64,000 bases of DNA. Source: Prorocentrum cordatum (taxonomy: Eukaryota). Positions 45,841 through 61,556 of the stretch are shown here, in pieces (positions within the stretch are counted from its first letter, which is position 1; each line of letters begins with the position of its first letter). The stretch covers positions 1,426,001-1,490,000 of the forward strand of contig CAUYUJ010000225.1 in the NCBI GenBank assembly GCA_963575745.1, read 5' to 3'. A program made the position numbers and the translations under genes. Below the pieces are notes generated by a model. It made no database searches, was not told the DNA's origin, and saw only the letters and a program-made list of their open reading frames with translations.

Positions 45841-47257
45841 GCATCAGCATGCGCTGAGGAGGAGAAAAAGGAGGAGGAGGAGGAGGAGGAGGAGGAGCAG
45901 GAGCAGAAGGAGCAGGAGGAGGAGCAGGAGGAGGAGGGGGGGAGGAGCAGGGGGAGAAGGACGGCGAGGAGGGAAAGTACATGAGTAGCAGGGACAGGGG
46001 AAGAGGGAGGAGGATTTAGAAAGGGAGAGATGAAGAGAAGGAAGAGGAGGAGGAGCAGGAGGAGGAAGCGGAAAATGGCGAATGGTGCCGTGCCCACCCA
46101 GCATCCTCAGGGCCGCGCCCAACCGTGAGTGGGAGAGCAAGGAGGGCGTGCCCAAGAATGAGTAAAGGTGCCCTGGCCGTCGCGGATCTTTGGGGCCGCG
46201 CCCCCCGCGAAAGAAAGGGACGGCAAAAACGGGGCTGAAGATAGCCAAGGGTGCCCTGCCCATCCTCAGGGCCGCTTCCCACCCGTGAGTGGGAGGGCAA
46301 GGAAAACATGCCCAAGCATGAGCAGAGGTGCCCTGCCCGTCGCGCATCCTTGGGGCCGCGGCCCCCATGAATGTAGAAGAGGATGGCCGAGGGGGCCCTG
46401 CCCATCGCGCATCCTGTGTAGGCTTGGCCCACAGGGGCATAGCGCTGCGCGATCGAAGGATGCAGCCCGCCCCAAGGGAACCCTGAGGGGCTGGCCAACG
46501 AAAATTTCCACGGATGGGTCGAAAGGGCAACGATGCAAATGCAACCTTGGAGAATTGTGTAAACCGTGATATCGTTCCGCCTCTCTCGTTCTACCTCCTT
46601 CCAGGTCTCAGCAGCGGTTGGAACTCAATGCCAATGACACCAGCTGAATGTGTCTTGGCTGTTGCAACCAAGTCCAAACCTGCAGCAGGTCTGGCGTCTA
46701 GACAGTTTATACAATTTCGGGACACAAATCAAGAAGGGTGTGCATCGGAAGGACGGGCGCAGGCGTCCCGCCATCCAGGAAATAGTTAAAGGCTTCGTGC
46801 AGCGAGCCATTGAGGCTCTGTGCCGCTAAGCTTGCAGCCCAGCGGCGCACGAATTCACGCGTTGGAGTGCGCTGGCGCTTACAGATTCAGAACCTAGCTC
46901 CGAAACCCGAACCGATACTTCAGGACCCTGGCCCCCAGGGGGGGGGGGGGGCAGGTTGGGCGGGCATTGGCCACGCAGGGGTCTCCCTGGTCGGTTGCTG
47001 GCCATCTCGGCCCAAGGCCCCAGGGCAGTAAATTAGCTCTCCACGAAACGAATGGCAACACAAATATTCAACAAGTCTCCTCGTGGCCTCTGCGGATCGC
47101 TCACGAACGGCTGACCAAGGTTTGTTCGGAGCACCCCTGGGGGCTCAGCCCACTGCTGGCAAAGTCTTCCCTGCGTGTCTTTGGGGCCCGTGTCCAGTGC
47201 GAAGGCACACTGGCCTTGCCGATCGGCTCGGAGCGCTGCTTGGCGGAGGTCCCTGCT

Positions 47258-47925
47258 CCCTCCTCCTCTTCCTCCTCCTCCTCCTCCTCCTCCTCCTCCT
47301 CCTCCTCCTCCTCCTCCTCCTCCTCCCCCTCCCCCTGCCCCTGCCCCTCCCCCTGCCCCTCCCCCTCCCCCTCCCCCTGCCCCTCCCCCTCACCTCGCCC
47401 CCCCCCTCCCCCTGCCCCTCCCCCTCCCTCCTCCTCCTCCTCCTTCCTCCTCCTCCTCCTCCTCCTCCTCCTCTCCTCCTCCTTCCTCCTCCGCCTCCGC
47501 CTCCTCCAACTCCCCGCCTCCTTCGCTCCGCCTTCCGCTCCGCTCCGCCTCCTCCGCCTCCACCTCCGCCTCCGCCTCCGCCTCTCCTTTTCCCCTCCCT
47601 CCTTCTCTCCTCCTCCTCCTCCTCCTCCTCCTCCTCCTCCTCCTCCTCCCTCCTCCTCCTCCTCCTCCTCGCCCCTCCCCTCTCCTCCACCCTCGTCCTC
47701 TCCCCCATCCCCTTCCCCCTCTCCTCCCCCTCCCCCTCCTCCTCCTCCCTCGTCTCCCTCCTCCTCCTCCTCCTCCTCCTCCTCCTCCTCTCCTCCTCCC
47801 TCCTCCTCCTCCCCCTCCTCCTCCTCCCTCCCTCCTTCCTCCTCCTCCTCCATCTCCTCCTCCTCCTCCTCCTCCTCCTCCTCCTCCTCCTCCTCCTCCT
47901 CCTCCTCCTCCTCCTTCTCCTCCTC
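47258..47925. repeat. (CCT)n/C-rich microsatellite
   Basis: Direct reading. Confidence 0.95.
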
Positions 47926-48469
47926 TGATGATGATGATGATGATTACTACTGCGATTGTTACTACTACTGTTATTCGTGTTATTACTACTTGTGTTTGTC
48001 CTATTGGTAGTAGTAGTATTCGGATTGTTACTATATGTTTTGTGATTCCTCGTCTGATTTTTATTGTAGGTAAAAAGTCGTATGATGTGTCTTACTATGC
48101 TTCCCTTAGTAACATTCTTCGTAAACTGTATAGTAGTATTACTCTTAAGTATAATACTTGCATTGTCGCATTCCTCTTCTTAGTGTCATTGTTATTATTT
48201 GCATTCGTGTCATTATTAAGTTTACTCACTAATCGTATCGTTTGTATGTTTATTATTATTCGTCTTATCATTATAATTATTATTATGTCTTTGCTGATTG
48301 TGTTTATCTTGACTATTCGTATTACTGATACGCTTACTCTTATCATTATCATTATTATTAGTAGTATTACGATTGTTATTAGTATTCCTCCTCCTCCTCC
48401 TCCTCCTCCTCCTCCTCCTCCCCCCGCCTCCTCCTCCTCCTCCTCCTCCTCTTCCTCCTCCTCCTCCTC

Positions 48470-49180: not shown

Positions 49181-49571
49181 CTTCTCCTTCGTCCTCCTCA
49201 ATCCTCCTCCGTCCTCCTCCGTCGTCCTCCGTCCTCCTCCGTCCTCCTCCGTCATCCTCCATCCTCCTCCGTCCACCTCCGTCCTCCTCCGACCTCCTCC
49301 GACCTCCTCCGTCCCCCTGCGTCATCCTCCTCCCCCTCCTCCTCCTCCTCCTCCTCCTCCTCCCCCTCGGTCCTCTTCCTCCTCCTCCTCCTCCTCCTCC
49401 TCCTCCTCTCCTCTCCTCCTCCTCCTCCTCCTCCTCCTCCTTCTCCTCCTCCCCCTCGGTCCTCTTCCTCCTCCTCCTCCTCCTCCTCCTCTCCTCCTCG
49501 GCCTCTCCTCCGTCCTCCCCCCTCGTCTTCCGGCCCTCCTCCGTTCTCCGGGGCACACGGGGGGCGGGGGC

Positions 49572-50377: not shown

Positions 50378-50761
50378 ATTCTCTGGAGGCGCCGAGGAGC
50401 TGGCCAGGACGCGGCGGGCGCGGCCGGTGCGTGCGGAGCCCGTCTGCTGACCGGGAGGCCTGGTTGAGGGTGCCAGGCCGCTGGCCAGGAGGAGAGGGCG
50501 GCAGGGGTGCGCGCCGAGGAGAGGGGAGGACGCGGCTGACGCGGCTGCGGGCCTGGGACAGCGACCAGTGTTGGCGGCGCGCAGAGGGGGGTAGGAGAAG
50601 GGGGGAAGGATTCTTAGCACCCCTGCTTCTTAGAAGGCGCGGGCCTTCTCTGTAGATGTAGAGTTGGCGCCTTCTAAGAAGCTGCCTCCTTCTAAGAAGC
50701 CTTCCCTCCTCCCCCTACCCCCTTGTGCGCGCCGCCCAAAAAGAGGATGGCGGGCGGGCAC

Positions 50762-50880
50762 TGCCCGGGCGCGATCCAGACCTCGGCGTCCGGCAGGCGC
50801 TGCGCCAGCGGACCAGCAAAGGTCTTATGCTCGACCGCCACAGTGGGGAGCACGATGTACTTCACAGGGCCGTATCTCTC
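50762..50880 (-). CDS. DUF4336-family gene, exon 3 (ERYGPVKYIVLPTVAVEHKTFAGPLAQRLPDAEVWIAPG)
   Basis: Hallmark GxVKYIxLPT...EHKxFxGP; 119 nt; AG acceptor at 50882-50881; GT donor at 50761. Confidence 0.93.
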
Positions 50881-51002
50881 CTCGAGCATCATGCGGGGGT
50901 GGGGGGAGTGCCATACAGGTGACGTGAGGAGGAGGAGGAGGAGGAGGAGGAGGAGGAGGACAAGGAGGAGGAGGAGGTGGTGGAGGAGGAGGAGGGGGAG
51001 GA

Positions 51003-52560: not shown

Positions 52561-52620
52561 GAAGAGGGGGAAGAGGAGGAGGAAAAGGAGGAGGAGGAGG
52601 AGGAGGAGGAGGAGGAGTTC

Positions 52621-52772
52621 CTCCAGACCGCGCAAGAGCGACATGCACTCGTCCGTGGGTGCCACGGCGCTGTAGAGCAGGAGGCCACCTGCCTCCAGCC
52701 TCAGTACGGTCATGCGGATGGGCACGTGGACGTACAGCAGGCCGATCTTCTGCTCGAGCCCCCAAACTTCGC
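52621..52772 (-). CDS. DUF4336-family gene, exon 2 (EVWGLEQKIGLLYVHVPIRMTVLRLEAGGLLLYSAVAPTDECMSLLRGLE)
   Basis: Hallmark LYVxVPIRMTVxxLxxGGLLxYxxVAPTxEC; 152 nt; non-canonical GAG|GA donor at 52620. Confidence 0.93.
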
Positions 52773-52809
52773 CTCGGCCGATGCGCAGGTTACGGAAGGC
52801 AACGGCCGG

Positions 52810-52816
52810 GAGGAGA

Positions 52817-52847
<31 letters not shown>

Positions 52848-53450
52848 GGAGGAGGACGAGGAGGAGGAAGTGGACGAGGAGGAGGAGGAGGAGAGGGGAG
52901 GAGGAGGAGGAGGAGGAGGAGGAGGAGGAGGAGGAGGAGGAGGAGGAGGGAGGAGGAGGGAAGATTGAAGAGGAGGGGAGGAGGAGGAGGAGGAGGAGGA
53001 GGAGGAGGAGGAGGAGGAGGAGGAGGAGGAAGAGGAGGAGGAGGAGGAGGAGGAGAGGGGAGGGGAGGACGAGGAGGAAGGAGGGGGAGGGGGAGGAGGC
53101 GGAGGCGGAGGCGGAGGCGGAGGCGCGAGGAGGAGGAGGAGGGAGGAGGAGGAGGAGGAGGAGGAGGAGGTGGGGAGGAGGCGGAGGAGGAGGGGAGGGG
53201 GGAGGGGGGAGGGGGGAGGGGAGGTAGGAGGAGGAGGAGAGGGAGGAGGGAGGAGGAGGAGGAGGAGGAGGAGGAGGAGGAGGAGGAGGAGGAGGAGGAG
53301 GAGAGCAGGAGGAGGAGGAGAGGAGGAGGAGGAGGAGGAGGGGGAGGAGGGGGAGGAGAAGAGGAGGAGGAGGAGGAGGAGGAGGAGGAGGAGGAGGAGG
53401 AGGAGGAGGAAGAGGAGGAGGAGGAGGAGGAGGAGGAGGAGGAGGAGGAG
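52810..53450. repeat. (GGA)n tract abutting the LINE 3' end
   Basis: Direct reading. Confidence 0.95.
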
Positions 53451-54299
53451 TCCATGGGATTCGGCCCATGGTCCATCCGCGCCACAGTGCCTTCCTCCTC
53501 ACGCGTCGACTCTGACGCCAGCACAGCGGCCCCAGGCACTTCGCCAGCCCTCGGCACACCGACGACAGGTCGTCGAGCACGAGTATCCAGCTCACCTCGC
53601 TGAGGCCCAACTCCGCCGCAAACCTGGGGCCCCAACTTCGCCGCGACCTCCTCCGAAGCGGACACGGTCCTGCTGAGCCTGCCTTTCGTGCCCAACTCCT
53701 CCGAAGGCGGCCTCGCACTCGACGATTCGGCTGCCTGTTCTCCACGCGACATCGACGAACTCTGAGCAGCGGGCTCTGACGACAGCTCAGGGCAGACCGC
53801 GGCCGCCAGCGGCGGCAGTGGCGCCGCGGCGGCGGCTCCGCGGGTGGCAGCGGCAGCACGCCTGCCAGGCACAGCGCTGATCCCCTTCTCCGCCTTGATC
53901 ATGGAGTGCGCGCGTGCCGTGCCCACTTGGCCAGCCTGCGCATGTTGGCGTGGTAGTTGGCCCGAATGCGTCGCCGTGCTGCCGCGCTGCCCACGCCGCC
54001 TCGCAGAAGTCCTGAGCCATCCTGAGCCTGACCACGCCCATGTTGTCGATGCCGATCGTCCGAGCAGCCTCGTTGACGAGCGGCGCCCACGTATCATGCA
54101 TCAGCAGGTCGGCCACGTAGGACACGCACAGGCGCAGCCAGTGCGCTCTGACTCCAGCTTCGTCGAGCACAGAGACGTCCTGGAGCCGGAACGCGGTGCA
54201 GGCCCTCAGCGTCCTCTCGAGCGTCATGCGCGCCGACGCGGCAGCTCGCCACGCAGGGCCCTGGTCCTTGGCCTCCGTGACTTGCAGTTGTGTCTCCGC

Positions 54300-55900
54300 A
54301 GACGCCGTTGCGGCTGACGGCGCCAGTGGTGGTCATCTTACTCAAAGGCTCGAAGACGCCGCCGTTGGCCAGGTGCTCGAGCCCAGTGCCCTTGCTGACC
54401 TCGCGCCACTGCCACGCTTGCACAGCGCGCAACAGGAGACGCCGGACGATCCACGGGGCCAGCTCGAAAACATGGACGTCGACATCTTCGTGCGCGCGCC
54501 AGGCGGCGGCGTTGACCACCTGCCAACCGACCCGCTCGAGGGTGAGCCGCACCGCACTGAGGGGCCCGCGCGCCTGGCTCCAGCTCTGGGCCTGGCAGCG
54601 CGCCATGCCGCAGTCGATGATGCGCTGGGGAATCCAGCTTCCCCGGGCCGCCCGCGGCAGCATCATGGTGGGCAGGAGCGTGGCTCTGATTATCGGGTCG
54701 AGCATGGGCGTCAGCATCAGGGTGAGCGTGCGCGACCGTCCAGCCAAGCTGGACGCGACCGCCTTGAACGACTCCGTCCGCAGCGTGTCCAGCTCCATGG
54801 CGGCGCAGCCAGTGACGGCGATGCCGTGGGTCACGCTGGGCTCGATGCCAGCCCTGGCGACCTTGCTCGCAGCCTCCTTGCGCCCTGCCCCTGTCTTGAG
54901 GATCGCCACGCGGCGTTGACGTAGCCCTGCCTGCACCAGCTTCTCCTGGCGCACCTCGCGCACGATTCGCCTGCCACACGAGAAGTCACCGCCCATTGTG
55001 GGCTCACCCTTGACCGAGATCACGCCGAGCGGCCAGCGCAGACGGGCAGCCAGGCCATGGCGAGCAGCAGGGAGGTTCGCCAACGCCCTTGGCTTCTTGA
55101 CCGCAACGTCGAGGTCCACGTCCACGAGTAGCGTCTTGAGCCTGAAGGCAGCCCCAGCAACCTCCTCCGTCACCCGCGCGAGCCCGCCAACTCGATGGAG
55201 CATGAGGTCGTCCACGACCGCTGCCAGCGACAAGGTCGGGCGCTGGATGACCAGGCGGTCGAGCGGCCCGATCAGGATGCGCTTCAGCAGCGAGGTCGAA
55301 GCCGTCACCGGGCAGGATGGACTGCCTCGCCTCGATCACGCTCGAGGCAGCGCTGCCCATGCAGAGGGCCCTCGGCGCGCAGTATAGCTCCGGCGTCAGC
55401 TTGAGCTGCCACGGCGGGAAGCCAGCGGCGATGGCAGCGTCGAGCAGCCAGTGGTGCCGCACTTGCTCGAACGCCTTGAGCAGGTCGAGCAGGGCGGCGA
55501 CCGCCACCCAGGACTCGGCGTCGCCGCTGTCAGCGCCCCGCTGCGTGGCCCACTCTCCGATCACAGCTAGATGCCATACGGCCCGCTCGCAGCTGCGGCC
55601 AGCCGTCGCCCACCTGTATGGGCGATCGTTTGCCCCCTCCCACTTGCGGGCGAGGCCACGCCGAAGTCGTGCCTGCACCCTTGCGAGCACCATGATGACG
55701 GCGATGGGCCTCGCTCCGCCCAGCCGCTTTTGGATGGGGCCGATCTTGGTGGTCATGAGCGGCCAAGCGGCGTCGCGCTCGATCGCCATGGGGATGTCGA
55801 TGAGGACCCCCCAGCGCCTCGTCGCATAGCTCATCGAGCTGACGCGGCCTCGCGGCGCAGATGGACATGCCCGTGGTGGCCCTGAAGGAGCGCAGCACGT
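54300..55900 (-). pseudogene. LINE ORF2 reverse transcriptase region (frameshifted)
   Basis: GGARPIAV, GRSCERAVW, LLDLLKAFEQVRH, QSILPG, then LAAVVDDL (YxDD equivalent) in the next frame. Confidence 0.9.
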
Positions 55901-56839
55901 TGCGCAGCTCCTGGACTGAGGGCCTCGGCGGCCTCTCGCCCAGGTCCGAGGGCCAGTGCAAGCGCATGTGCTCGCAGGATGTCCTCCACCAGCGACTCCA
56001 CTCTACCTCGAGCTGCGTCACCTGCTGCCCGAGGTCCATGGGCTCGAACAGCTGCCTACAGTCGCCGAGGCCGTCGCCGTTCTCAGCTTCGCCAATGGGG
56101 CTCGGGTCGGAACCGATGGGCAGACGGGATACTGCGTGGAGACCGCCACCTCCCCCTTCGGCCTACTTCTCGACCCACAGCTGGAACTGGGCGGTCCGCT
56201 GCCCCATGCCCCGCTCCGCCATCTCGAACGCGACCGCGTGCGCGCGCGCAGCTGCTGCAGCGCGGCGGGGCCCGGCAGGGACAGACGCAAGTTGTTAAAC
56301 AGTATCCACCAAGCCACGGTTTGAGGCAACACCTGATGGCAGGACAGAACCTCGCCGTTATCAAGTGTCGACCTCAGTGGCTGGGGATCCGTCTAGCAGT
56401 CTGCGCGCACCTCGAAGAGCGTCGAGACGCGCGCGCGGCTGCTCCACGGCGGCGATGTCGAGCAGCGCGCTGGCCACGCGGTGCATCCAGGTCGCCTCTG
56501 CAGAAACTCGGGGCCAGCGGGCACCGGCCACAGGAAGCCGACGGTGCCGCCGCGGCTCTGCAGGGCGAGCTCGCCCCTTGTGCTTGACCTTGTCCCCCTT
56601 CCGCCCGGTAGATGTCGATCCACTCATCCTCGGCGGCGCCGAGGAACCGCTGCCGCGCAGTGGCGAGGTGGCCCTTGATGCTGCTGTCGCGCTCGGCCTT
56701 GTCCAGCACCCCCCCCTGCCCGCCAGCAAGCAAGCTCTGCAGTTCCTGGCCGATCTCGCTCCAGCGCTCGCCGTGCGCATGGCGAGCACAGCCCGCGGGC
56801 CGCTGGACAGGGAAGGGCTCGGGCACCTGCGCGAGGCCC

Positions 56840-57505
56840 CCAGCTCCAGGATGACGGGCTTGTGCGGGTAGACTGGTGACCCGCTGACCACTCGGATGTT
56901 GGTCACCTTGAGTCCTCGCGAGACGATGAACAGATCGATCGTCCTCTTCGACCGCGCGCAGGCGGGCTCCAAAGTGTCCGCGACGACGGCATCGAAGAGT
57001 CTCAGCACGCCCAACTTCACCAGCTCCTGCTCGGCGCAGCTGGAGTCGCCCCCGACCGCGCACGGGCGGCCATGCTCCCGCAGCCTGCAGGCCAGGTCTT
57101 TCAGCGCGTAGTAGTTGAACGCGTTGACACCAGCGCCTGACTGCAGGTAGGTGTTGGCCAGCGCAATGCCACCGCGGACTGGCCCAGAGCGATGTAGCAC
57201 ATGCGCGCGCCCCTCACGTTGGACGGGCGGGCGTGGCCCCAGCATGGCGGCAAGCCCATGCTCGCTGCGCACGCGCGCGAGCAGCCCCCCAGTCGCTTGC
57301 CCCCCAGCCAGCGACGGCACCGCGGCTGCACCGCAGGCACAAAGCCCACTACGACGAAGCTCCCCTTCAGCGTCCGTCGCGCGCGCTTGTCCTAGCCGAG
57401 TGTCTTGAAACAAGATGACGTCGCAGCCAACCAGCTCCTCGATGAGACACCTGTCGACGTTCAAATACGAATTCATAGTCAGCGACGCGATGCTCCAAGA
57501 CTGGG
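56840..57505 (-). pseudogene. LINE ORF2 apurinic-like endonuclease domain (degenerate)
   Basis: DVILFQDTR, TGG, NTYL, VGGDSS (for GGDFN), RTIDLFIVS, PHKPVILEL. Confidence 0.85.
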
Positions 57506-57510
57506 CACGG

Positions 57511-58613
57511 CTACCCCAAACGCGGCGTCTTGGCCTCAACCGCGGCCGCGTGCTTCTGCTTGAGGTGAGCCTGGAACTCCTCGACGAACTTCCGCTTCTC
57601 GGGGTCGGAGCCGACGAAGGCCGAGGCGGCGGCCTGGAACGCGTCACCCGTGGTAAACTCCAGCGGCCCCCCTTCGAGGTCCCCGTCGAAGCCTTCGCCC
57701 GCGGCGACGCCCGCAACGGCAGCCCCTGCGGCAGCCTCACAGCCGCTTGCTGGGGCGCCCGCGGCGCCACCGCCCGCTGCGACTGGTTCAGGAGAGTGAG
57801 CTGCCAACTCCTGCCAGCAGCGCGCGGAGGGGGCCCAGCAGGTCCTCGCTGAGCTGGAGTTTGGTGTTCGCCAGACGCGCCCACGACGCCCTCGAGCTTC
57901 TTCGCGTGGCCGATGAGTCCGCCGACGTCGCACTTGGACGCGGCACCATGCTTGGGCACGGTGTCGTTGGCGAGCGCGGCCTTCGCCCTGGAGACGGCGG
58001 CGCCCAGCTCGACCTGTAGCTGCGCGACCTTCTCCTTCTGCATGCAAGAACCCTGGAGCGCCTCAGCAGCAAGCTCCTGCTTCTTCTCGTAGTCCAGCTT
58101 GGCTTGCTGTAGCCGCTTGCAAGCTTCGTCCGCCGCCACCTGCGCAGACTTGACCGTCTTGATCTCAGAGAGCAAACCCAGCTGCTGCTGGAGCAGGAAG
58201 CGCAACTGCCGCGGGCTGTGCTTGTCGTTGGCGGCCAGCGTGACGGACAGTAGCTCGAAACCGGCATCGCTGAGTGCCAGGAAGCGGTCGCGGGCCTCGG
58301 GCGAGAGCTTGGGCGGCTGCGCCCCAAAGCCCCCGCCACCTCCACGCTTCGGCTTCTGCACGGTGTGCCACGGGCGGGAGCCGCCAGCACCGTCCGCCCA
58401 AGCCCCGCGCGGTGGAGAAAAATCATCACGAGGAGCAAGCACACCGCGATTGGTCGGTCGGCCGACAGCCCGTGCACCCCGTCTGCCGACACTTCGCGCG
58501 CCAGCCCAGGTTCTTGTAGTGGCAGCGGTGGCATCGCCAGCTTGTCCCCTGAGCTGACTCACGCACTGCACCAGCGCCAGAGCCGCCGCCGCCGCCGAAA
58601 GGAGGAGGAACCA
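57511..58613 (-). pseudogene. LINE ORF1 with RanBP2-like Zn finger and coiled coil (frameshifted)
   Basis: WRCHRCHYKNLGWRAKCRQTGC at 58539-58474; helical KRLQQAKLDYEKKQELAAEAL segment; stop at 57511. Confidence 0.7.
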
Positions 58614-58748
58614 TGCCGCGCGAACGGCTCGCCACAAGGGCGGCGGGCTCCTCACCTGGGGCTGACCAGGCGGAGACAATTGAAGACTGCCGCGGACTAG
58701 CGGTATCCTTGCAGGCACGGAGGCGCGGAGCCCCCAAAGTGCAGGCAT

Positions 58749-58769
58749 CTTGAGCCAAAATGGCTACGG
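58749..58769 (-). other. Dinoflagellate spliced leader (DinoSL) relic
   Basis: Exact CCGTAGCCATTTTGGCTCAAG, 21 of the 22 nt of DCCGTAGCCATTTTGGCTCAAG; not followed by a GT-started SL RNA intron. Confidence 0.97.
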
Positions 58770-58938
58770 GGGAGGAGGAGGAGGCGGAGGAGGAGGAGGA
58801 GGAGGAGGAGGAGGAGGAAGAGGAAGGGAGGAGGAGGAGAGAGAGGAGGAGGAGGAATAGGAGGAGGAGGAGGAGGAAGAGGAGGAGGAGACGGAGAGGA
58901 GGAGAAGAGGAGGAGAGGGGGAGGAGGAGGAAGGGGGA

Positions 58939-59524
58939 GGACAAGTAGGTGCGCCTCGCGTCATATCTGACGTCCTACCCTCCCTCCCATCCCTTACCAT
59001 GGCGCTGAATTTCCTTCCTATCCGCACGTGTCGTAGCGGACCTGTGGCTCCGCGCGCGCATGTGCGTAGTGGGTGGTGGTGCGCGTGCGTGCGTGCGTGT
59101 GTGCGTGGTTGTGGTGGTGGTGGTGTGTGGTGGTGGTGGTGGTGGTGTTGTTGTGTGGTGGTGGTGGTGGTGGTGCTGGTGGTGGTGGTGGTGGTGGTGG
59201 TGGTGGTGGTGGTGCGGCGCGGTGGTGGCGGGCGGATGGGCGCGCGAGAAAGAGGCCCGCGCTGGGGCGAGAACGCCATCCTGAACGACGGAGGCCAAAC
59301 ACCGATCCGAAAATGAGGCCCACGCTGCAGCGGGAGCACGATTCGGAACGATTCGGGAGCAGAAATGAGGCCAGCGCCTCAGCGAGAGCAGCATTTTGAA
59401 AAAACGCAAGCGAAAACCCGTTTCCCGGGAATCCTGTGTGAAAAAAACAGTACGCGGGGGGGGTCGGATATCTTCGGGACGCCATCAGGGGAAGTGGGAG
59501 AGTATTTTCATATTGTGTAATTGT
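58939..59524 (-). mobile_element. ~580-bp SINE-like element, copy 2
   Basis: Direct repeat of 51003-51580; (GGA)n on both sides. Confidence 0.7.
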
Positions 59525-60153
59525 GGAGGAGGAGGAGGAGGAAGAGGAGGAGGAGGAGGAGAGGAGGAGGAGGAGGAGGAGAAGGACGAGGAATAGGAGG
59601 AGGAGGAGGAGGAGGAGAAGAGGAGGAGAAGAGGAGGAGAGAGGGGGAGGAGGAGAAAGAGGGAGGAGGAGGAGGAGGAGGAGGAGGAGGAGGAGGAGGA
59701 GGAGGAGGAGGAGGAGGAGGAGGAGAAGAAGTGGAGGAGGAGAGAGGGGGAGGGAGAAGGCGGGAGAATGGTCTGTTCGAGCGCGGACGGCACGCCCAAA
59801 ATAGTGACGATGCCGCTGGAGGCGCGGCCCGAAACAGGCGTCGACCACTGTTGGGCAGGTGACGCCTGCCGTCTGCGAGACAGACGGCGAACCCTCCCAC
59901 AAGATCAGAAGCTTCACAAGTTGAGCTCGCAGCGGTCGTCGTTCCCTTCCGTACCGTCCCATCTCGGACGCCCCGAGCATTAGGTCGGGCATGTCCTCCT
60001 ACAGGCGGGTTTTGGACGAAAAATGAAACATAGGTCAGAAAATACCCCCAAATAGTAAAGAAGACTCGAAAAATCGTCCCCTGACTATTTTTCGACTGGT
60101 TTGGAATATTCCTCCTGTAGAGGGACATGCCCGACTTCACCCGAGCAAAACAC

Positions 60154-60326
60154 CTGGAATGTACTCCACCAGCAGCGTCCGCCTGCGCTCGTAGGGCGCG
60201 ACGGGCAGCGCCGGCCACAGCGGCCACCATGCCTCCGAGGGCGTGGGCGGCGGCCGCAGATCCGCGGCGCCGCCCGGGGCGGCGGCCCCAAATGGGGAGG
60301 CGAACGCTTCCCTCGCCGGGGCCACC
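60154..60326 (-). CDS. DUF4336-family gene, first recognisable exon (...EAWWPLWPALPVAPYERRRTLLVEYIP); 5' boundary uncertain
   Basis: Fits the N-terminal WPxWPxxPxxPYxxRRT motif; CAG|GT donor at 60153 in phase with exon 2 (G+GC = Gly). Confidence 0.88.
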
Positions 60327-61556
60327 CTGGAGCTCGGCCCCTCTGACGGGCCGATTTTCCACCACCGCTACCATATGTAGGATAGGGGGGCGGAAAAGGA
60401 GGAGGAGGAGGAGGACGAGGAGGAGGAGGAGGAGGAGGAGGAGGAGGAGGAGGAGGGGAGGAGGCAGGAGGAGGAGGAGGAGGACGAGGAGGAGGAGGAA
60501 GAGGAGACCTCCTCATCCTCCCTTCTCCCTCGTCCTACTTATGGTAGTGGTGGTGGAAAACCGGCCCATCATCCTCGCCGGTCCGCGGCGACAGCAGGCA
60601 CACGGCCGCCGCAGCAGTGACCCAACCCACCGTGGGGCGCCTGGACCACGCATAGCTCGAGCTGAACCGTGTTATTTCCGTGTTCGCTTTGTCTTCGTAG
60701 TAGTCCGTTCCGTCTCCGTGCTGCCTCTACTGCGGAACGGAATCAGAACGGAAGCGGCCCACGAAAGCACCAAAACACCGTTTAGCTCGAGCCCTGGCCT
60801 GAACCACGGACAACGGGATCCCCAGCCGGGCCACCGCGGCCGCCCCATCGGCGCGGTGGCCCAGGATAAGGCGCCTGAGGCTGGAACGTTTCAGGCAGCA
60901 GGTTGCAACGAGGGCGGGGCGACAAAACACGCGACCCTTCTGTTGCGGTCGCGATGCCAATGCCAGCGTCGAGGAGCAAGCTGTGCGGAGTCAGGGCGAA
61001 CTGCTGGTGGCGACGCTTTGCAGACTCTGCCACTGCTCGGGCAGCCTCCCAGCGCTCACTGATGCCCATCCAAAACAAAGCATCAAAGATGATGGATCAT
61101 TACAAGGCCGACGATAAAAACGACGGCAAGGTGATTGAGGATAAGAACGACGAGGGTGAAAATGAAGACAAGGACGAGGACCAACATGATGACGATGATG
61201 TTGGTGAATGCGATGACAAGAGTGGATGTGAAAATAATGACGACGATGCTAATACTGGAAAACGCGCCACTGGATCACCCTGTAGTTGAACAGGGGGGGG
61301 TCCGACCCCCCCCCACTCCCCCCCTTCAAAGGGGGGTGAGATTTTCGACTCCCCCCCCCCCCCTTAAGGAAAGGGTCCGAACCCCCCCCTCCCCCGACCC
61401 CCCTTGAAGGGGGAGGGGGTTCCGCCCCCCCCTCCACCCCTTGACGCTGGAAAGGGCGTGGGGAGTTCGAACCCCCCCCTCCCCTCCCCCCCTTTGCGCC
61501 GAACAGGGGGCCGGGGGGGGGCCTCTCCTGCAAGGGGGGGGGGGTCTGGCCTCGGG

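What the first reader, a model, noticed from the sequence alone, without database searches (positions are those of the whole stretch)
53451..58769. LINE whose 5' end is exactly the spliced leader: possible promoter-free, trans-splicing-dependent retrotransposon
Seen: the perfect 21-nt DinoSL core sits at the junction between a (TCC)n flank and the LINE body. The LINE lies sense within intron 1 of a host gene. Established: DinoSL is added to mRNAs by trans-splicing, and SL relics mark retroposed cDNAs. Inference: the element RNA was SL trans-spliced before integration. The inserted SL ends in AG downstream of a pyrimidine tract, so read-through host transcripts could be trans-spliced again to regenerate capped full-length element RNA without an internal promoter.
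Basis: partly seen in the sequence, partly recalled or inferred. Interest (0 to 1): 0.8.

Follow-up and report, generated by a model that had tools for sequence, protein, structure and literature searches.

The report
Dead LINE capped by spliced leader
A worn-out jumping gene (a LINE) inside an intron of a dinoflagellate gene starts exactly with the short leader that these algae splice onto their messenger RNAs. It was therefore copied back into DNA from a leader-capped RNA, but nothing here shows that it depends on that leader to spread.

Summary
A perfect 21-nt DinoSL core lies at 58749-58769 on the minus strand (0 of 100 shuffles gave a match). It sits exactly between a 166-nt (TCC)n tract and a 5.3-kb APE-type LINE at 58769-53451 on the minus strand.

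The LINE is a dead copy. It has at least 4 in-frame stops and 2 frameshifts in ORF2, and at least 1 frameshift in ORF1.

It lies in the sense orientation in a 7.4-kb intron of a DUF4336 gene. That gene matches a Prorocentrum cordatum protein at 95-100% identity. The intron is number 3 in the deposited model, and the first one among the exons that homologues support.

Best reading: the LINE RNA was SL trans-spliced, fully reverse-transcribed, and inserted into a (GGA)n/(TCC)n microsatellite. The promoter-free, trans-splicing-dependent life cycle is possible but was not tested here:
- No genome was held.
- No RNA run was listed.
- No other 5' end of the family could be read.
- This copy carries no relict leader.
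- An upstream host donor site should favour cis-splicing.

It is not a CRE/SLACS/NeSL-type element. This scan has already noted SL-headed LINEs on at least 9 other stretches of the same genome, so this copy adds one case plus the (TCC)n and intron context. My paper searches found no explicit description of such LINEs.

The parts
58770..58935 (-). 5' flank: (TCC)n-like microsatellite, 166 nt, 98.2% pyrimidine on the sense strand, no AG
58749..58769 (-). DinoSL core, 21/21 identical; this is the 5' terminus of the element
   Evidence: 1 match; 0 of 100 shuffles
58616..58748 (-). 133 nt between the leader and the ORF1 candidate start (ATG at 58615-58613). A second ATG abuts the leader at 58748-58746 and opens the 800-codon stop-to-stop frame, so the ORF1 start is unresolved.
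   Evidence: no protein relatives of this region
57511..58615 (-). ORF1-like region: a Cys-rich piece, a coiled-coil-like stretch and a C-terminal piece lying in two frames (at least 1 frameshift, probably 2); stop at 57513-57511. No family match.
   Evidence: read by eye, inferred
56793..57515 (-). N-terminal endonuclease domain of ORF2 (APE/ExoIII-like, judged through relatives)
   Evidence: P0020 residues 19-265, E 1e-16; P0025 E 9e-15; clade profile positions 4-157 match exodeoxyribonuclease III, E 3.3e-6; no direct Pfam or PDB match
56160..56370 (-). Damaged linker with 4 in-frame stops; includes a lower-GC stretch around 56280-56400 and a part with low depth in run X1
54334..55843 (-). 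Reverse transcriptase, split over two frames (shifts near 55805 and 55299); motifs LLDLLKAFEQV and VVDD
53451..54333 (-). 3' region. Relatives have a CCHC motif plus RNase H here; in this copy the region is only partly alignable (to 54100) and is out of frame.
53452..53471 (-). Terminal 7-bp hairpin (CCAUGGG / 6-nt loop / CCCAUGG), 1 nt from the 3' end. Not significant on its own.
   Evidence: z = -0.80; 32 of 200 shuffles fold as well
52809..53450 (-). 3' flank: about 640 nt of (TCC)n-like repeat. It is either the target microsatellite or the element's own tail. The whole flank down to the acceptor (52774-53450, 677 nt) is 95.4% pyrimidine and AG-free, and the repeat ends about 35 nt before the host intron's acceptor.
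60140..60343 (-). Host DUF4336 gene: the exon upstream of the LINE-bearing intron (P0152 residues 39-106); GT donor at 60139
52618..52773 (-). Host DUF4336 gene: the exon downstream of the LINE-bearing intron (P0152 residues 102-153, 100% identity); the acceptor AG lies just upstream
50761..50886 (-). Host DUF4336 gene: next exon (Pfam DUF4336, E 1.4e-13). Further exons lie at 49664-49572 and 26674-26609.

Best explanation
This is a dead, full-length copy of an APE-type non-LTR retrotransposon. It has an ORF1, an N-terminal APE-like endonuclease and a reverse transcriptase; its relatives also carry CCHC and RNase H. The genome is that of a Prorocentrum cordatum-like dinoflagellate.

Steps, each marked as shown or inferred:
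1. Inferred: the RNA of the source element received the 22-nt DinoSL by trans-splicing at an AG just upstream of ATGCCTGC.
2. Inferred: the endonuclease nicked the (GGA)n strand of a (GGA)n/(TCC)n microsatellite inside an intron of a DUF4336 gene. The anatomy shown here fits this reading: the (GGA)n on the plus strand runs straight into the antisense LINE at 53450|53451.
3. Shown by the perfect 21-nt leader at the junction: reverse transcription ran to within one base of the RNA's 5' end.
4. Shown: the copy has since decayed, or was already defective.

The leader is therefore a stamp of how the template RNA was matured, as in DinoSL-tagged retrogenes. The new copy inherits the leader's two AGs behind a long pyrimidine tract, and it is co-transcribed with its host gene. 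Re-splicing is thus mechanically conceivable, but there is no sign that this copy ever did it.
For: - The leader is exact and unique in the window (0 of 100 shuffles). It is followed by ATG, not GT, and Rfam finds nothing.
- LINE identity. The clade profile matches R2 at E 4.3e-11, L1 ORF2p at 9.5e-11, ExoIII at 3.3e-6 and RNase H at 9.2e-6.
- The closest relatives, at 81% and 75% identity, are named Prorocentrum cordatum.
- The family is multi-copy. In run X1, 627 contigs were laid: 76 at 99% or more, 243 at 95-99%, 144 at 90-95% and 164 under 90%. All 30 bins are covered, including 58259-58616 at depth 20-28. Contigs carrying indels lie at 58677-58736, next to the leader.
- Host intron and orientation.
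- Lesions.
- Literature passages state that DNA-encoded DinoSL marks retroposed cDNAs (PMC6050394; PMC7245778; PMC12014239). Song et al. found 'RNA-dependent DNA replication' enriched among DinoSL-relict genes (PMC5585692).
- Leads only, not tested here: at least 9 earlier notes of SL-headed LINEs in this genome.
Against: - No second copy of this family could be read at its 5' end, so 'full length' rests on this copy alone.
- The 133 nt after the leader and the start of ORF1 have no detectable relatives in either protein search, at near or longer lengths.
- The base before the core is C, not the T/A/G of the 22-nt leader.
- No target-site duplication can be read in a microsatellite.
- There is no poly(A) tail.
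- No leader was found on distant relatives. 0 of 5 metagenome LINE loci have even a 15-nt relict with up to 3 substitutions. Only one of those loci reaches upstream of ORF2, and they may not come from dinoflagellates.
Confidence: 0.8

Rival explanations
1. One reading: this LINE family has no promoter of its own. It persists because each new copy carries a leader whose AG, placed behind a pyrimidine tract, lets read-through host transcripts be trans-spliced again into capped element mRNA.
For: - The leader's AGs at sense positions 5-6 and 20-21 are the first AGs after 166 nt of AG-free pyrimidine.
- The copy lies in the sense orientation in a transcribed intron.
- Splicing at the terminal AG would recreate the same RNA exactly.
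- Relict leaders from re-splicing are documented for retrogenes.
- Run X1 holds a contig with a leader followed by a relict leader, but it is not linked to this LINE (table 5c).
- Leads only: two earlier notes of LINEs in this genome with a leader plus a relict.
Against: - This copy has no relict and is dead.
- The host donor at 60139 lies upstream, so cis-splicing should compete (recalled nematode outron rule).
- Orientation bias and 5'-end counts could not be computed.
- No RNA data were available.
- The P. cordatum paper's supplementary note calls LINEs young (Kimura 0-10) but says nothing about leaders in the passages seen.
Confidence: 0.3
2. A chimera made by template switching. The reverse transcriptase jumped from the LINE RNA to the 5' part of an unrelated SL-capped host mRNA, so the leader and the next roughly 130 nt are not LINE sequence.
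For: - The 5' 345 nt has no protein-level relatives.
- An ORF1 frame change lies near 58430.
- U6/L1-type chimeras are known in mammals (recalled).
Against: - X1 contigs with small indels cover 58677-58736 at depths of 16-135, above the 4-5 depth of the lowest-depth contigs. This suggests the segment is multi-copy, but it is weak evidence because leader-anchored contigs inflate the depth there.
- The reading frame that holds the Cys-rich ORF1 start is open through this segment.
Confidence: 0.07
3. The DNA-encoded leader serves as a minimal promoter through its TTTT/TTTG motif, as Song et al. proposed for retrogenes. On this view copies are transcribed from the leader itself, not rescued by trans-splicing of read-through RNA.
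For: PMC5585692, abstract and passages: the TTT(T/G) of DinoSL relicts is preferentially retained upstream of retrogenes. The leader here is intact, 21 of 21, while the body is damaged.
Against:
- At 5-10% divergence, an unchanged 21-mer is expected in 11-34% of cases (my arithmetic), so its integrity is not evidence of selection.
Confidence: 0.1
4. The leader was already at the site, as a remnant of an SL RNA gene or of an older retrocopy, and the LINE landed next to it. This would be an SL-gene-targeting element like CRE/SLACS/NeSL.
For: None beyond the adjacency itself.
Against: - The leader's 3' end joins the LINE with no SL-intron sequence (GT...), and the LINE's 3' flank is (TCC)n, not the rest of a leader gene.
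- No Rfam match.
- The endonuclease is the N-terminal APE type, not the C-terminal restriction-like type.
Confidence: 0.02

Closest known systems
DinoSL-relict retrogenes ('recycled processed cDNAs'; Slamovits and Keeling 2008, recalled and as described in passages of PMC6050394, PMC5585692 and PMC12014239)
   Same: There is a DNA-encoded DinoSL at the exact 5' end of a retro-copied sequence. It implies reverse transcription of a mature, trans-spliced RNA.
   Different: Here the retro-copied RNA is the retrotransposon itself, not a host mRNA. The 3' end has no poly(A) but a hairpin plus (TCC)n. The leader is full (21 nt) with no truncated relict.
SL-gene-specific LINEs: CRE1/CRE2/SLACS/CZAR of trypanosomatids and NeSL-1 of nematodes (recalled)
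   Same: A non-LTR retrotransposon lies physically next to a spliced-leader sequence.
   Different: Those elements insert into SL RNA genes, use a restriction-like endonuclease C-terminal to the RT, and interrupt the leader exon. This element has an N-terminal APE-like endonuclease and carries the leader as its own 5' end. It sits in a microsatellite inside a protein-coding gene's intron.
Microsatellite-specific LINEs (R1-clade Waldo/Mino/Kibi/Koshi, R4-clade Dong; recalled)
   Same: The same simple repeat flanks the element on both sides in one orientation. The repeat could pair with the element's 3' end during target-primed reverse transcription.
   Different: Only one copy was seen here. 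(GGA)n/(TCC)n makes up 5.4% of this window, so a chance landing has a probability of about 3-6%. Clade membership was not tested.
Trypanosomatid L1Tc/ingi with the Pr77 internal promoter (PMC1874656 and PMC8190864; search listing and abstracts only)
   Same: A LINE in an organism whose mRNAs are all SL trans-spliced.
   Different: By those abstracts, L1Tc makes unspliced transcripts from its own internal promoter. The element here bears the leader, which is the opposite solution.

Membership tests
APE-type non-LTR retrotransposon (LINE) | Reverse transcriptase domain of the non-LTR type | tested here: met
   The direct Pfam RVT_1 match is only weak (E 0.0066-0.028, under the cut-off). However, there are 435 relatives at E<=1e-3, and 9 of 12 scanned carry RVT_1. 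The clade profile matches R2 and L1 ORF2p at about 1e-10.
APE-type non-LTR retrotransposon (LINE) | Apurinic-endonuclease-like domain N-terminal to the RT | tested here: met
   57515-56793 aligns to the N-termini of P0020 and P0025 (E 1e-16 and 9e-15). The clade profile's N-terminus matches exodeoxyribonuclease III at E 3.3e-6. P0009 has Exo_endo_phos at E 1.8e-4, under the cut-off. There is no direct Pfam or PDB match of the window's own fragment.
APE-type non-LTR retrotransposon (LINE) | Target-site duplication and a defined 3' tail | tested here: inconclusive
   Both flanks are (TCC)n, so a duplication cannot be read. There is no poly(A). The tail may be the (TCC)n itself.
DinoSL-relict retrocopy | DNA-encoded DinoSL at the 5' end of the copied unit | tested here: met
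   21/21 at 58749-58769 on the minus strand; 0 of 100 shuffles.
DinoSL-relict retrocopy | Truncated relict leader(s) showing repeated rounds of splicing and retroposition | tested here: not met
   There is a single full leader and no CCATTTTGGCTCAAG repeat downstream.
DinoSL-relict retrocopy | Remnant of a poly(A) tail at the 3' end | tested here: not met
   The 3' end is ...CCCATGGA followed by C(TCC)n.
SL-gene-targeting LINEs (CRE/SLACS/CZAR, NeSL) | Restriction-like endonuclease C-terminal to the RT, and no APE domain | tested here: not met
   An APE-like domain lies N-terminal. The relatives' C-termini are CCHC plus RNase H.
SL-gene-targeting LINEs (CRE/SLACS/CZAR, NeSL) | Insertion inside an SL RNA gene, with leader-gene sequence on both sides | tested here: not met
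   The flanks are (TCC)n within a DUF4336 intron. There is no SL intron and no Rfam match.
Microsatellite-specific LINE | Most copies lie in the same repeat in the same orientation | not testable with these tools
There is only one copy in the window and no genome is held. Hints only: contigs of X1 (18) and X3 (12) join a (TCC)n-like flank plus leader to other bodies, and one X3 contig joins 58015 to the flank.

The most novel reading that the evidence does not exclude
A lineage of dinoflagellate LINEs targets (TCC)n/(GGA)n microsatellites in a fixed orientation. Each full-length insertion then places the leader's AGs directly behind a long AG-free pyrimidine tract, which is a ready-made trans-splice acceptor. 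Any sense read-through transcription, for example from a host intron, could then be turned into capped, translatable element mRNA without a promoter. The same enzyme would stamp host retrogenes with the same (TCC)n|leader junction.
Probability: 0.15. Interest if true: 0.8.

Novelty: new variant of a known kind. Interest (0 to 1): 0.5.

Why it matters
Dinoflagellate genomes are full of retro-copied genes that carry leader relicts. The enzyme behind this retroposition, and the way the copies get expressed, remain open questions in the papers I read (passages of PMC5585692, PMC6050394 and PMC12014239). A LINE that itself bears the leader shows that LINE RNA enters the same maturation path as host mRNA. 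It also makes APE-type LINEs a concrete candidate for the retroposition machinery.

If the leader plus pyrimidine tract does act as a reusable acceptor, this would be a retrotransposon expression strategy without a promoter. This single dead copy cannot decide that. The P. cordatum assembly and SL-primed long-read cDNA could.

Tried and rejected
- **Whole genome:** none is held.
- **Second copy in the window:** none found.
- **Earlier notes by sequence or place:** nothing by RT protein, by 5' DNA or nearby.
- **Sequencing runs:** no RNA holder is listed. Only run X1 holds part of the stretch (0.22 of the words). The read laying tables did not resolve whether body-matching contigs carry the leader; 161 loose ends and 697 pieces were not shown. 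No contig of X2 was laid.
- **Metagenome scans:** A3 found 204 pattern matches but 0 relatives. A4 found 5 distant LINE loci, of which 0 of 5 had a leader or relict, even with up to 3 substitutions. These loci have 45-51% GC, are 27-34% identical to P0012, and only L001 reaches upstream of ORF2. They are therefore uninformative.
- **IMG/VR (viral contigs):**
  - A3 gave 0 relatives and A4 gave 0.
  - The 31-nt leader+body junction gave 0 matches.
  - Of 119 leader-bearing stretches, 0 contained a LINE-like ORF. The positive control worked.
- **Protein searches with the leader-to-ORF1 region:** none at near lengths and none at longer lengths.
- **Direct Pfam or PDB recognition:** none for the endonuclease fragment or for ORF1.
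- **3' hairpin:** not significant.
- **RT phylogeny against named clades:** not done, because no reference set was available. Domain architecture was used instead.
- **Literature:** searches found no paper that states LINEs begin with DinoSL. [quoted passage not shown]

Full report
[quoted passage not shown] It is the only match in the 64-kb window, with 0 mismatches, and 0 of 100 dinucleotide-preserving shuffles gave a match. Its 12-nt 3' part has no second site even with one mismatch allowed.

On the sense strand the leader is preceded by 166 nt (58770-58935). This stretch is 98.2% pyrimidine, (TCC)n-like, and free of AG. The base directly in front of the leader is C, so the variable 22nd base (T/A/G) is not matched.

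The leader is followed at once by ATGCCTGC..., not by the GT of an SL RNA gene. Rfam finds no RNA family anywhere in the window.

**The body is a LINE.** Pfam sees the window's own fragments only weakly: RVT_1 at E 0.028 and 0.0066, both under the cut-off. This is because the reading frame is broken. A 413-aa fragment (54094-55335, minus strand) finds 435 proteins at E<=1e-3 among 1.84 billion representatives.

- The nearest named hits, at 81% and 75% identity, are 'unnamed protein product [Prorocentrum cordatum]'.
- Of 12 relatives scanned, 9 carry RVT_1, 3 carry RNase_H, and 1 carries Exo_endo_phos under the cut-off.
- tblastn of long relatives maps an N-terminal domain to 57515-56793, a linker to 56225-55806, and the RT to 55843-54334. 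The RT lies in two frames, with shifts near 55805 and 55299.
- A profile of 12 relatives plus the window's N-terminal fragment matches several solved proteins: the R2 protein (E 4.3e-11), human L1 ORF2p (9.5e-11), exodeoxyribonuclease III at its N-terminus (3.3e-6), and RNase H near its C-terminus (9.2e-6).
- The language-model atlas places relative P0009 among RVT_1 + Exo_endo_phos clusters.

The clade is therefore APE-RT-(CCHC)-RNase H.

Upstream of ORF2 lies an ORF1-like region with a coiled-coil-like stretch and a stop at 57513-57511. It has no family match. The leader-to-ORF1 region also has no protein relatives. Its start is unresolved. One ATG abuts the leader at 58748. Another, at 58615, opens a Cys-rich piece in a different frame.

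**State of the copy.** Frame tracking shows several lesions:
- 4 in-frame stops between the endonuclease and the RT (56370-56160);
- 2 frameshifts in the RT;
- at least 1 frameshift in ORF1.

The copy is dead, unless some of these lesions are assembly errors, which I could not check.

**Ends and target.** The 3' end reads ...CCAUGGGCCGAAUCCCAUGGA. This forms a 7-bp hairpin 1 nt from the end, followed by about 640 nt of (TCC)n. The fold is not better than shuffles (z = -0.80; 32 of 200 shuffles fold as well).

On the plus strand the (GGA)n runs directly into the antisense LINE at 53450|53451. This is the geometry expected if the (GGA)n strand was nicked and primed reverse transcription (inference). 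No target-site duplication can be read in a microsatellite.

(GGA)n and (TCC)n tracts make up 3,472 of 64,000 nt (5.4%) of the window, about half in each orientation. One insertion in such a tract therefore has a chance probability of about 3-6%. That is suggestive of targeting but does not prove it.

**Host gene.** Pfam found one DUF4336 exon on the minus strand at 50761-50886. A search with it returned a 435-aa P. cordatum DUF4336 protein, P0152. tblastn maps P0152 onto the minus strand at 95-100% identity, at these positions:
- 60848-60798
- 60648-60574
- 60343-60140
- 52773-52618
- 50886-50761
- 49664-49572
- 26674-26609

The LINE lies between 60140 and 52773, in the sense orientation. The intron is about 7.4 kb, with a GT donor at 60139 and an AG|G acceptor before 52773. 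In the deposited model this is the third intron.

**Family-level evidence.** No genome is held, and the window has no second copy.

One public run, X1 (kind guessed as DNA), holds 22% of the element's sampled words. No RNA holder is listed.

Laying X1's contigs at 80% likeness or more gave 627 contigs: 76 at 99% or more, 243 at 95-99%, 144 at 90-95% and 164 under 90%. They cover all 30 bins. Summed depths are about 70-160 over the endonuclease and RT, 20-28 over 58259-58616, and 6-25 at the 3' end. The family is therefore multi-copy and diverged.

Contigs with 1-nt deletions lie at 58677, 58685, 58713 and 58736, next to the leader. The tables do not say whether these contigs reach the leader.

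In X1, 18 contigs match the leader plus the (GGA)n flank but diverge into different bodies (agreement 0.41). In X3, a different organism of the same study, 12 contigs do the same. One X3 contig joins 58015 directly to the flank, with only 20 nt on one side, so this is weak evidence. These contigs suggest that a (TCC)n|leader junction recurs. They were selected by similarity to my reference, so no frequency can be given.

**Other collections.**
- Metagenome contigs: 5 distant LINE loci were found, and 0 of 5 had a leader relict.
- IMG/VR: no relatives of the family and no junction match.
- IMG/VR stretches bearing the leader: 0 of 119 contain a LINE-like ORF.

**Mechanism.** The most economical account is that the element's RNA was SL trans-spliced, copied to its 5' end, and inserted by target-primed reverse transcription.

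This is sound as sequence logic: the first AGs after the 166-nt tract are those of the leader. Splicing at the terminal AG would regenerate the same RNA.

Three points limit it here:
- Passages of PMC12014239 give CCATTTTGGCTCAAG as the usual relict, which means re-splicing occurs at the inner AG. Progeny should then carry a leader plus a relict, and this copy has none.
- The copy sits in an intron with a donor site upstream. In nematodes that arrangement favours cis-splicing over trans-splicing (recalled, not tested).
- The copy is dead.

An alternative way to express such copies is the TTT(T/G) motif of the leader acting as a core promoter, as Song et al. proposed (PMC5585692).

**What is known.** The papers I read state that DinoSL relicts mark retroposed cDNAs. 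They also state that the reverse transcriptase responsible is unknown, with LINEs or Ty1/copia suggested. Song et al. report enrichment of 'RNA-dependent DNA replication' among relict-bearing genes, which implies RT genes with relicts. None of the passages seen says that LINEs begin with the leader, and none of searches found such a statement. The supplementary note of the P. cordatum genome paper calls LINEs young (Kimura 0-10).

This scan has already noted SL-headed LINEs on at least 9 other stretches of this genome. One of them lies inside a TCC repeat, and two carry a leader plus a relict. These are unchecked leads. By sequence, none matched this family.

**Verdict.** This is a new variant of a known kind: a DinoSL-tagged retrocopy in which the copy is the LINE itself. 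It is not a CRE/SLACS/NeSL-type element. Interest is moderate (0.5). The idea is attractive and testable with the assembly and SL-primed cDNA, but this dead, single-leader copy adds one more case rather than a proof.

Noticed in passing
IMG/VR loci L006-L124 (e.g. L016, L025, L029, L062, L064; contigs GVMAG-M-3300023179-82, -3300023174-52/-43, -3300007618-2, GVMAG-S-3300013131-116): The exact 21-nt DinoSL core occurs in 119 stretches of the viral collection, mostly in giant-virus MAG bins with a median locus GC of 0.20. There are 136 distinct contexts. In 129 of them the preceding base is A, which gives the 22-nt leader, behind an AT-rich upstream stretch. Only 3 are followed by GT. The first ATG lies a median 49 nt downstream and opens a median 221-codon ORF; 105 of 134 ORFs have 100 codons or more, against 11% at random positions. 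Of 30 such ORFs scanned, 7 are DUF4116 repeat proteins and 2 are CCCH zinc-finger proteins. This looks as if giant viruses of dinoflagellates encode the host leader at the 5' end of many of their genes. One paper search listed no description of this. Basis.
   Followed up: partly
L072 (IMGVR_UViG_3300008016_000003, 5319 nt), minus strand: The contig begins exactly with the DinoSL core and encodes a 788-aa ORF with viral RdRP_1 (E 4.9e-7). It is a dinoflagellate +ssRNA-virus-like sequence carrying the host leader, either a transcript of an endogenous copy or a leader-capped viral RNA.
   Followed up: partly
window 26609-60848, minus strand: The host DUF4336 gene is spread over at least 34 kb. 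One intron is about 22.9 kb (49572 to 26674). Residues after 243 of P0152 could not be placed in the window.
   Followed up: partly
window, whole; e.g. 52809-53453, 58767-58896, 59522-59732, 47256-47927, 49320-49495: (GGA)n and (TCC)n microsatellites make up 5.4% of the window: 1,711 nt as GGA and 1,761 nt as TCC on the plus strand. Within the DUF4336 introns between 52.5 and 60.5 kb they lie with the pyrimidine strand as the sense strand, one of them ending about 35 nt before a 3' splice site.
   Followed up: partly
runs X1 and X3 laid on window 58749-58794: Many contigs of two organisms join a (TCC)n-like flank to the spliced leader and then continue into bodies unlike this LINE: 18 loose ends in X1 and 12 in X3. 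X1 also has a contig with a leader followed by a relict leader.
   Followed up: no
window 56280-56400 (inside the LINE): A lower-GC stretch between the endonuclease and the RT coincides with the cluster of in-frame stops. The neighbouring bin 56111-56289 has depth 10 in X1, against 70-114 in the bins beside it. This may be a small insertion or a copy-specific segment.
   Followed up: no
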